A stretch of 64,000 nucleotides of DNA, from IMG/VR virus record IMGVR_UViG_3300026085_000093, positions 96,001 through 160,000 of that record, one strand, 5' to 3'. A program made the translations under genes and the position numbers. The notes beneath the pieces are model-generated. The model saw only the letters and a program-made list of their open reading frames with translations, ran no database searches and was not told the origin of the DNA. This DNA comes from a virus. Lineage: Duplodnaviria; Caudoviricetes. This document shows, piece after piece, positions 61,194-61,433 of this stretch; position 1 is the first letter of the stretch; every line of letters starts with the position of its first letter.

Positions 61194-61427
61194 TTACCAG
61201 AACGGCTGTCCTGTCTTTTTACTAGTTTCTAAATTTTCTTTTACTATACCTGCTAGGATTTCTCTGTCCTCAACACTCATCTCGTAAAGTTCTGACACCG
61301 AAACACCTCCACGCATGTACCAAGACAATTTGTAGAGATCATGTTTTATTTGTTTTGATTCGTTGTCAAGGATCTCAACTTGTTTGAGAATGTCCTCTAA
61401 GGACAGAGCTGAGATCCTTAGGCGAAA
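61194..61427 (-). CDS. -1 frameshift extension of the gp26-like chaperone (gp51/GT-like C-terminal domain)
   Basis: 77 open codons, FRLRISALSLEDILKQVEILDNESKQIKHDLYKLSWYMRGGVSVSELYEMSVEDREILAGIVKENLETSKKTGQPFW, in the -1 frame. Stop TAA at 61196-94. No ATG/GTG/TTG in the first ~33 codons. Confidence 0.75.
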   Translation of the reverse strand, partial: FRLRISALSLEDILKQVEILDNESKQIKHDLYKLSWYMRGGVSVSELYEMSVEDREILAGIVKENLETSKKTGQPFW

Positions 61428-61433
61428 AAATTT
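61367..61433 (-). other. Programmed -1 ribosomal frameshift signal (slippery site plus stimulatory stem-loop)
   Basis: A_AAU_UUU_UUC at 61433-61424. Stem AAGGAUCUCAG (61419-61409) pairs with UUGAGAUCCUU (61378-61368) and encloses the hairpin UGUCCU-UAG-AGGACA. Confidence 0.75.

What the first reader, a model, noticed from the sequence alone, without database searches (positions are those of the whole stretch)
61194..61433. Programmed -1 frameshift fusing a T4 gp26-like chaperone to a gp51/GT-like domain
Seen in sequence (minus strand): the gp26-like gene ends ...UCA AAU UUU UUC GCC UAA. This holds two overlapping X_XXY_YYZ heptamers (A_AAU_UUU and U_UUU_UUC). A strong stem (AAGGAUCUCAG/UUGAGAUCCUU, 10 WC + 1 G.U, with an inner 6-bp hairpin) starts 4-6 nt after the UUC. 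The -1 frame is closed by a UGA just upstream of the slip site, then stays open for 77 codons, with no usable start until a late TTG/ATG. Predicted products are 285 aa and ~360 aa. Established: lambda gpG/gpGT-type tail chaperones use such frameshifts, whereas T4 genes 26 and 51 are separate genes. Inference: T4-like jumbo phages may make a G/GT-like pair, here encoded divergently from the tape-measure gene. Annotators would call only a short MRGG... ORF.
Basis: partly seen in the sequence, partly recalled or inferred. Interest (0 to 1): 0.75.

Follow-up and report, generated by a model that had tools for sequence, protein, structure and literature searches.

The report
Frameshift in phage baseplate-hub chaperone gene
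One tail-assembly gene of this uncultured marine giant phage very probably makes a short and a long protein, because some ribosomes slip back one base at a conserved UUUUUUC run; phage T4 encodes the matching pair as two separate genes (26 and 51).

Summary
The minus-strand gene 62275..61418 belongs to the T4 gp26/gp51 family (PF12322). It ends ...AAT TTT TTC GCC TAA. After the heptamer T_TTT_TTC (61430..61424), the -1 frame stays open for 76 more codons without any start.

- **Conservation:** the heptamer is invariant and in phase in 78 of 78 IMG/VR relatives and in 11 of 12 cultured giant phages. The twelfth has a T9 run. Chance from synonymous codon choice is about 1e-32 over 32 clusters.
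- **Coding signal:** the -1 peptide is conserved from its first residue (FFR...). It has 0 stops in 50 sequences, against 192 and 162 in the other two frames.
- **RNA structure:** a stem starts 5-6 nt after the heptamer, and 9 of its 13 pairs show compensatory changes.
- **In-frame fusions:** other phages encode core plus extension as one 320-359 aa protein. In 4 of 4 contigs checked, this gene sits behind a short paralogue.
- **Gene count:** complete genomes with the frameshift have one PF12322 gene. T4 has two, and the C-terminal tail of gp51 aligns weakly but above controls with the extension.

No published report of this frameshift was found. This scan has already noted the same signal in at least 20 other genomes. 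No experiment has yet shown the frameshifting.

The parts
61418..62275 (-). Zero-frame gene for the short form (285 aa). It belongs to the T4 gp26/gp51 baseplate-hub assembly family.
   Evidence: ORF list. PF12322 at 25.4 bits against a cut-off of 24.5; phrog_150 at 1.4e-8. It is the only PF12322 match in the 236-kb genome record.
61424..61430 (-). Slippery heptamer T_TTT_TTC (U_UUU_UUC) in X_XXY_YYZ phase.
   Evidence: Read directly. Invariant in 78 of 78 IMG/VR loci and 11 of 12 cultured relatives; the twelfth has a T9 run. Chance from synonymous codon choice is about 1e-32.
61418..61420 (-). Zero-frame stop TAA, two codons after the heptamer.
   Evidence: In relatives the zero-frame stop lies 1-12 codons after the heptamer.
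61440..61442 (-). TGA that closes the -1 frame three codons before the heptamer. No independent start is therefore possible upstream.
   Evidence: In some relatives the -1 stop abuts the heptamer, for example L026.
61367..61420 (-). Stem-loop downstream of the slip site and likely frameshift stimulator. A 14-bp outer stem encloses an inner 6-bp hairpin. The conserved core starts 5-6 nt after the heptamer.
   Evidence: MFE -24.7 kcal/mol, z = -5.4. 90% of cells paired, 9 of 13 pairs with compensatory change, 0 of 500 shuffles as good, and 19-54% paired when partners are slid. Helix score has median 10 against 6 in 806 control windows.
61194..61430 (-). The -1 frame extension: 78 codons (FFRLRISALS...GQPFW) plus TAA. 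It has no usable start before TTG 61328 and ATG 61316.
   Evidence: Translation. Alignment A1 is conserved from residue 1. 0 stops in 50 sequences against 192 and 162 in the other frames; synonymous share 0.245 against 0.10 and 0.07. 444 database relatives.
61194..62275 (-). Coding span of the predicted long form (360 aa). Codons 1-284 are read in frame 0 up to 61424, then translation continues in the -1 frame from 61424. The junction reads ...FDQSNFFRLRIS...
   Evidence: Inferred from the parts above. Natural in-frame equivalents of 320-359 aa exist.
62353..64000 (+). Divergent neighbour: a tape-measure-like gene (1010 aa in the full genome) followed by a T4-type portal gene. This is context for the finding.
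   Evidence: phrog_4200 tail length tape measure at 5.6e-6; portal PF07230 at 1.5e-73. Pfam TMP_3 hit is below cut-off.

Best explanation
The gene is the phage's single gp26/gp51-family baseplate-hub assembly gene, and it is decoded in two ways.

1. Most ribosomes read frame 0 and stop at TAA 61420..61418. This gives a 285-aa short form, equivalent to T4 gp26.
2. A fraction of ribosomes pause at the stem-loop that begins 5-6 nt after U_UUU_UUC. They slip back one base with tRNA-Phe in both the P and A sites (UUU UUC to UUU UUU).
3. These ribosomes continue in the -1 frame for 76 more codons. This gives a 360-aa long form whose helical C-terminal domain corresponds to the C-terminal tail of T4 gp51.

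Shown by comparison: the signal, the structure, the coding status of the extension, and the existence of in-frame long forms and of two-gene lineages.

Inferred: that slippage really occurs and at what rate; that both forms are needed; and that they act, like lambda G/GT, as a chaperone pair in hub and tape-measure assembly.
For: - **Slip site.** The heptamer is invariant and in phase in every relative whose 3' end is available: 78 of 78 IMG/VR loci at 42-99% identity, and Atu_ph07, Phosso, 121Q, PA5oct, CBB, fHe-Yen9-04, RaK2, XbC2, Vibrio 2.275.O, Munch and SCTP-2. RsoM2USA has a T9 run. P is about 1e-32 under free synonymous choice.
- **Extension.** It is conserved from F1 F2 R3, with no conserved start before codon 39. 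Gene callers give it many different starts or none.
- **Stem.** It has compensatory changes and is far stronger than control windows in the same genes (p = 5e-23).
- **In-frame fusions.** Core plus extension occur as one protein. PF12322 ends exactly at the junction F, and BLASTP of the window protein against P0009 ends at ...NFF/...ELF.
- **Two-gene lineages.** 4 of 4 fusion-bearing contigs carry a short paralogue just upstream, with no heptamer (checked in L095).
- **Gene count.** There is one PF12322 gene in each of four complete frameshift-bearing genomes and in this genome, and two in T4.
- **gp51 link.**
- **Not an assembly error.** RNA-library contigs cross the T6 run without an indel.
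Against: - There is no direct evidence of the long protein or of slippage for this or any relative. The phAPEC6 virion proteome lists neither the gene nor the small ORF. That fits a non-structural chaperone but does not prove translation.
- Three of the first five relatives have an ATG overlapping the zero-frame stop, so coupling could serve there.
- The position of the 3' arm of the stem differs between lineages (three classes), and a few sequences have only weak helices.
- The link to gp51's tail is weak at sequence level. The extension-only hhalign probability is 14-52%. The larger alignment A5 aligned to gp51 only over the N-terminal part. No HMMER hit to the gp51 C-terminal family is on record.
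Confidence: 0.88

Rival explanations
1. The -1 ORF is a separate small gene. It would be translated by termination-reinitiation or coupling, or from a non-canonical start just after the zero-frame stop, with no fusion to the upstream protein.
For: In Atu_ph07, Phosso, 121Q and L014-16 an ATG overlaps or follows the stop, and annotators call a separate 59-77 aa ORF.
Against: - Only one of 50 non-redundant IMG/VR-group sequences has an ATG near the junction (at codon 4).
- Conservation starts at the FFR inside the heptamer, in some cases directly after a -1 stop.
- It does not explain the invariant synonymous sites of the heptamer.
- It does not explain the in-frame fusions.
Confidence: 0.04
2. 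RNA polymerase slippage on the T6 run adds one U to some transcripts, and these then encode the long form in one frame.
For: The site is a homopolymer run. RsoM2USA has T9, a length at which transcriptional slippage is known (the length rule is my own knowledge).
Against: - Six residues is short for polymerase slippage (own knowledge).
- The run is always in X_XXY_YYZ phase, always followed by C, and followed at 5-6 nt by a covarying stem. These features matter to ribosomes, not to polymerase.
- RNA-library contigs from three studies cross the run with no inserted base. Contigs would, however, hide a minority.
Confidence: 0.04
3. Only a 40-aa micro-protein starting at the conserved ATG (codon 39, 61316, MRGG...) is made. 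The stretch between the stop and this ATG would be untranslated.
For: ATG at codon 39 is present in 47 of 50 sequences, and gene callers often pick it (40-44 aa entries).
Against: - Codons 4-36 have no stops in 50 sequences, against 192 and 162 in the other frames.
- They have a 2.5-3.5 times higher synonymous share than the other frames.
- They align with the in-frame part of the fused proteins.
- Met39 lies in the invariant W-x-M-R-G motif and is explained as a residue.
Confidence: 0.02
4. The frame break is a sequencing or assembly error, or a decaying gene.
For: Homopolymer runs are error-prone.
Against: The same arrangement appears in about 90 independent assemblies and isolates, in DNA and RNA libraries. 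Purifying selection acts on both parts.
Confidence: 0.01

Closest known systems
Lambda gpG/gpGT and the conserved -1 frameshift of tail assembly chaperone genes (also P2 E/E+E'). Xu, Hendrix and Duda 2004, cited in PMC9024508; the details here are from my own knowledge.
   Same: One gene gives a short and a C-terminally extended long form by a -1 slip at a heptamer shortly before the zero-frame stop. The gene lies beside the tape-measure gene. The P2 site is also a T-run (own knowledge).
   Different: - No sequence or fold similarity to known tail assembly chaperones was found.
- The core is about 280 aa, not about 140.
- The gene is divergent from the tape-measure gene rather than sitting between the tube and tape-measure genes.
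- Its T4 relatives act in hub assembly.
- Binding partners are untested.
Phage T4 gp26 (208 aa) and gp51 (249 aa), baseplate hub assembly chaperones (PF12322; PMC3004832 Table 2).
   Same: - The core family is the same.
- gp26 ends three residues after the FF motif (..EFFKLL*) at the point where the frameshift occurs.
- gp51 continues past it with a tail that aligns with the extension.
   Different: - T4 uses two divergent genes and has no slippery site (GAG TTC TTT GAG).
- gp51's tail is about 48 aa, not 76.
- T4 gene 26 also has an internal start (26').
- In the tree, gp26 and gp51 group together, apart from all frameshift genes (SH-aLRT 99).
Tandem short + long PF12322 gene pairs in uncultured marine phages (loci L095-L098).
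   Same: The long gene carries the same extension in frame, with 26-37% identity among the long forms. The short gene resembles the window's core from the N-terminus (27.7% over 289 aa). The neighbourhood is the same: tape-measure-like gene and T4 portal.
   Different: These are two genes with no heptamer (AAT TTT ATG AGT TAA in L095). The long paralogue keeps four invariant Cys, which the window protein lacks.
E. coli dnaX tau/gamma -1 frameshift (own knowledge).
   Same: A bacterial-type -1 slip at a homopolymeric heptamer, stimulated by a downstream stem-loop a few nucleotides away.
   Different: In dnaX the slip gives the shorter product, and an upstream Shine-Dalgarno-like element helps. 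No such element is conserved here (reading).

Membership tests
T4 gp26/gp51 baseplate-hub assembly family (Pfam PF12322, phrog_150) | Profile match over the family's curated cut-off | tested here: met
   The window protein scores 25.4 bits against a cut-off of 24.5 (marginal); phrog_150 at 1.4e-8. Relatives score 73-98 bits. Both T4 gp26 and gp51 match end to end.
T4 gp26/gp51 baseplate-hub assembly family (Pfam PF12322, phrog_150) | Two CxxC knuckles (four conserved Cys) | tested here: not met
   The Cys are invariant in the long forms and in T4-like gp26 and gp51. They are absent from the window protein and from the tandem short paralogues. This is lineage loss and not a bar to family membership by profile.
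gp51 C-terminal domain (PF28602 in precomputed annotations) | Profile match of the extension to the gp51-specific C-terminal family | tested here: inconclusive
   - PF28602 is not in the local Pfam copy.
- No PF28602 hit is on record for the four long forms looked up.
- phrog_634 was not hit.
- hhalign of extension against gp51 tail scores 24.7, probability 52%, with 0 of 200 permuted controls as high; A1 scores 20.0, 1 of 200.
- The full-length alignment runs end to end at 82% with A2 but is only N-terminal with A5.
Canonical programmed -1 ribosomal frameshift site | X_XXY_YYZ heptamer in the zero-frame phase, conserved at synonymous positions | tested here: met
   T_TTT_TTC in all relatives; chance about 1e-32.
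Canonical programmed -1 ribosomal frameshift site | Stimulatory RNA structure 5-9 nt downstream, supported by covariation | tested here: met
   The partner of the 5' arm differs between lineages.
Canonical programmed -1 ribosomal frameshift site | The -1 ORF lacks its own start and is under coding selection from the slip site | tested here: met
Canonical programmed -1 ribosomal frameshift site | Trans-frame protein demonstrated | not testable with these tools
   No proteomic data with the junction peptide are available. The phAPEC6 virion list lacks gp232 and gp233.
Lambda-type tail assembly chaperones (gpG/gpGT) | Sequence or fold homology to known chaperone families | tested here: not met
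   There is no such Pfam or PHROG hit. The AlphaFold model of a long form (pLDDT 89.7) has no PDB match beyond a helical hairpin. BFVD matches are only baseplate-hub proteins.
Lambda-type tail assembly chaperones (gpG/gpGT) | Position between the tail tube and tape-measure genes, co-oriented | tested here: not met
   The gene is adjacent to the tape-measure-like gene but divergent from it.
Lambda-type tail assembly chaperones (gpG/gpGT) | Short and long forms bind the tape measure; the long form recruits tube protein | not tested
   No complex prediction or experiment was done.

The most novel reading that the evidence does not exclude
The enigmatic T4 hub-assembly proteins gp26 and gp51 may be the T4-lineage counterpart of the lambda G/GT chaperone pair. 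On this reading, a short/long pair is a general requirement of long-tail assembly. The ancestral solution in T4-related giant phages would be one gene with a -1 frameshift. That gene would have been resolved into two genes by duplication at least twice: in T4-like phages (26/51) and in a marine lineage (tandem short + long).
Probability: 0.4. Interest if true: 0.8.

Novelty: new variant of a known kind. Interest (0 to 1): 0.68.

Why it matters
- **A missing case in long-tailed phages.** T4-type phages have been the outlier among long-tailed phages in having no frameshifted tail-chaperone pair (own knowledge of Xu et al. 2004). The roles of gp26 and gp51 are still unclear (PMC3004832).
- **A hypothesis for 26 and 51.** A conserved frameshift that makes a gp26-like and a gp51-like form from one gene gives a concrete, testable idea of why T4 has both genes.
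- **Annotation.** The gene is currently mis-annotated in the giant-phage genomes checked (RaK2, 121Q, PA5oct, CBB, Atu_ph07 and relatives). The extension is called as a hypothetical ORF with arbitrary starts, or missed altogether.
- **A natural comparison.** The family offers frameshift against gene duplication as alternative ways to set the ratio of two protein forms.

Tried and rejected
- BLASTP of T4 gp26 and gp51 against the window proteins gave nothing.
- hhalign with single T4 sequences gave off-register matches on the Cys knuckles.
- tblastn of the extension found only Atu_ph07 and Phosso among cultured phages. The other cultured relatives were found by position and confirmed by profile at 96.8%.
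- Pfam and PHROG scans of the extension at E up to 10 found no meaningful family.
- Fold searches of the long-form model against PDB (Foldseek and VIA wide) gave no real match.
- The AU test did not reject a single ancient duplication with gp51 plus marine long forms as one clade: p = 0.063, delta lnL 14.2. Independent duplication is therefore favoured but not shown.
- Literature searches found no report of a frameshift in gp26/gp51-family genes. The library lacks most subscription journals.
- The CBB and phAPEC6 virion proteome tables gave no usable evidence for or against the long form.
- No complex prediction was run, because no binding claim is made.

Full report
**What is there.**
On the minus strand, a 285-aa gene (62275..61418) ends ...GAT CAA TCA AAT TTT TTC GCC TAA. 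It matches PF12322 'T4_baseplate' (25.4 bits, cut-off 24.5) and phrog_150 'baseplate hub'. It is the only such gene in the 236-kb record of this uncultured marine giant phage.

The -1 frame is closed by TGA at 61442..61440. It then runs open through the heptamer T_TTT_TTC (61430..61424) to TAA at 61196..61194. The first ATG/GTG/TTG is TTG at 61328. A slip at the heptamer gives a 360-aa protein with the junction ...FDQSNFFRLRIS....

The RNA after the site folds into a 14-bp stem (61420..61407 with 61380..61367) around a 6-bp hairpin. MFE is -24.7 kcal/mol and z = -5.4.

The divergent neighbour is a 1010-aa tape-measure-like protein (phrog_4200, 5.6e-6), followed by a T4-type portal gene.

**Is it more than chance?**
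I fetched 80 related loci from IMG/VR (42-99% identity) and 12 cultured giant phages.

- Every locus whose 3' end is on the contig (78 of 78) keeps NNT TTT TTC in X_XXY_YYZ phase. So do Atu_ph07, Phosso, 121Q, PA5oct, CBB, fHe-Yen9-04, RaK2, XbC2, Vibrio 2.275.O, Munch and SCTP-2.
- The heptamer lies 1-12 codons before the zero-frame stop. RsoM2USA has a T9 run instead.
- Over 32 clusters below 80% identity, the probability of this under free synonymous choice with the genes' own codon usage is about 1e-32. TTC is the minority Phe codon. Independence is assumed, so the figure is generous but the effect is large.

**The -1 ORF is protein-coding from the slip site.**
- The 78-residue peptide aligns without gaps across the marine group. 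F1, F2, R3, W37, R40, G41 and N66 are invariant.
- It matches the extension of the RaK2-like group at hhalign probability 96.8%.
- In codons 4-36, upstream of the only conserved ATG (codon 39, 47 of 50 sequences), the -1 frame has 0 stops in 50 sequences. The other frames have 192 and 162.
- The synonymous share of codon differences there is 0.245, against 0.10 and 0.07 in the other frames.
- No start codon is conserved there. Databases hold this ORF with many different called starts (40-, 44-, 58-, 72- and 93-aa versions) or not at all.

**RNA stimulator.**
In 47 of 54 distinct sequences, the best helix starts 3-7 nt after the heptamer. Its ungapped score has median 10, against 6 in 806 control windows from the same genes. 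Only 0.9% of controls reach 10 (Mann-Whitney p = 5e-23).

The 3' partner lies at one of three positions, depending on lineage. For the commonest class (22 sequences):
- 90% of cells pair.
- 9 of 13 pairs show changes on both sides.
- No shuffle of 500 reaches this.
- Sliding the partners drops pairing to 19-54%.

The conserved core leaves a 5-6 nt spacer, which is typical of bacterial -1 sites (own knowledge). No Shine-Dalgarno-like element is conserved upstream (reading).

**Natural fusions and two-gene lineages.**
A profile of the extension, searched against 1.84 billion proteins, found 444 relatives. About 25 of the best 150 are proteins of 319-351 aa with the domain at the extreme C-terminus.

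These proteins carry the PF12322 core. The model ends at the F that corresponds to the slip site, as in ...LDHSELF|RNKIL.... BLASTP of the window protein against P0009 ends at NFF/ELF.

In all four contigs examined, this long gene sits directly behind a short PF12322 paralogue of 287-300 aa. The short gene has no extension. In L095, the one read at nucleotide level, it also has no heptamer (...AAT TTT ATG AGT TAA).

By contrast, the complete genomes of Atu_ph07, 121Q, PA5oct and RaK2 have one PF12322 gene each, and T4 has two.

**T4.**
- T4 gp26 (208 aa) and gp51 (249 aa) both match PF12322 end to end.
- gp26-family proteins end ..EFFKLL*, three residues after the FF motif. T4 has no slippery site there (GAG TTC TTT GAG).
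- gp51-family proteins continue..F KLLLNPDEIF..Y...SIM.M.PIER.IALSLVEKD.KK. In precomputed annotations they carry an extra C-terminal family, PF28602, which gp26 lacks.
- Comparing the extension of the long forms with gp51's tail alone gives hhalign score 24.7 (probability 52%, E = 1.4e-4). None of 200 column-permuted controls reach it (mean 10.2, sd 2.1).
- The frameshift extension (A1) gives 20.0 in the same register (1 of 200 controls).
- A full-length profile comparison (A2 against the gp51 family) ran end to end at 82%. With the larger alignment A5, only the N-terminal part aligned.

I rate the homology of gp51's tail with the extension at about 75%.

**Evolution.**
In a quick maximum-likelihood tree of the cores, T4-like gp26 and gp51 form one group, apart from all the others (SH-aLRT 99). 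Frameshift genes are spread through the other group. The marine long forms (98) and short paralogues (100) are nested among them.

This favours two separate duplications and an old frameshift. However, an AU test does not reject a single clade of gp51 plus marine long forms (p = 0.063). The tool also flagged long branches.

**Other checks.**
- Contigs from metatranscriptome libraries of three studies cross the T6 run with no indel. The frame break is therefore not an assembly error and is not corrected in the bulk RNA. A minority of slipped transcripts would not be seen.
- An AlphaFold model of a natural long form is confident (pLDDT 89.7, pTM 0.83). The extension is helical.
- The model has no match among solved structures. 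It matches only baseplate-hub proteins among predicted viral structures.

**Mechanism and function.**
The most likely mechanism is a canonical -1 ribosomal frameshift, in which tRNA-Phe re-pairs in both sites (confidence 0.88).

By analogy with T4, the two forms should act in hub and tape-measure assembly. There gp26 and gp51 are listed as hub assembly chaperones, and gp51 is absent from the particle (PMC3004832). The parallel with lambda G/GT is one of logic, not homology.

**Novelty.**
None of the 13 GenBank/RefSeq records inspected annotates a slippage. Seven literature searches found no report.

This scan has already noted the same signal in at least 20 other genomes, with follow-up reports that reached the same reading. 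I consulted these after my own analysis, and they did not change it.

Noticed in passing
window 61418-62275 (-); compare P0009 and L001-L004: The four Cys of the two CxxC knuckles are invariant in T4-like gp26 and gp51 and in the marine long forms, and C-containing knuckles are seen near the C-terminus in the cultured giant phages. They are missing from the window's protein, and from the one tandem short paralogue read (L095). A probable zinc site has been lost in these lineages.
   Followed up: partly
L095 3588-5449; L096 3105-5032; L097 3102-5080; L098 3097-4990: Uncultured marine phages carry a tandem pair of PF12322 genes: a short one with no extension, then a long one with the extension in frame. 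L095, the one read at nucleotide level, has no slippery site. This is a two-gene counterpart of the frameshift gene.
   Followed up: partly
window 61161-61188 (-): Just after the -1 ORF stop lies a hairpin, AAGGCT (12-nt loop) AGCCTT, followed by a T-run. It looks like a terminator and overlaps the 3' end of the convergent 172-aa ORF. The tool's scan did not call it because the loop is over 8 nt.
   Followed up: partly
window 61422-61444: Contigs of diverged relatives in metatranscriptomes match the window only over this 23-nt stretch around the slip site, and over 61767-61795. This shows nucleotide-level conservation of the site across otherwise dissimilar phages.
   Followed up: no
T4 gp26 residues 114-198 (L085 3803-4429, -): hhalign aligned the C-terminal half of T4 gp26 (roughly the gp26' internal-start product) with the N-terminal half of the long-form profile. 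Each half ends in a CxxC knuckle. This hints at an internal duplication in the PF12322 core.
   Followed up: no
window 60675-61193 (+): A convergent 172-aa Lys/Gly-rich ORF with no Pfam or PHROG family.
   Followed up: no
L092 (Ralstonia phage RsoM2USA) end of gene 1501-2301: Here the slip site is a T9 run (GTT TTT TTT TCC). This is long enough that polymerase slippage could add to ribosomal slippage.
   Followed up: no
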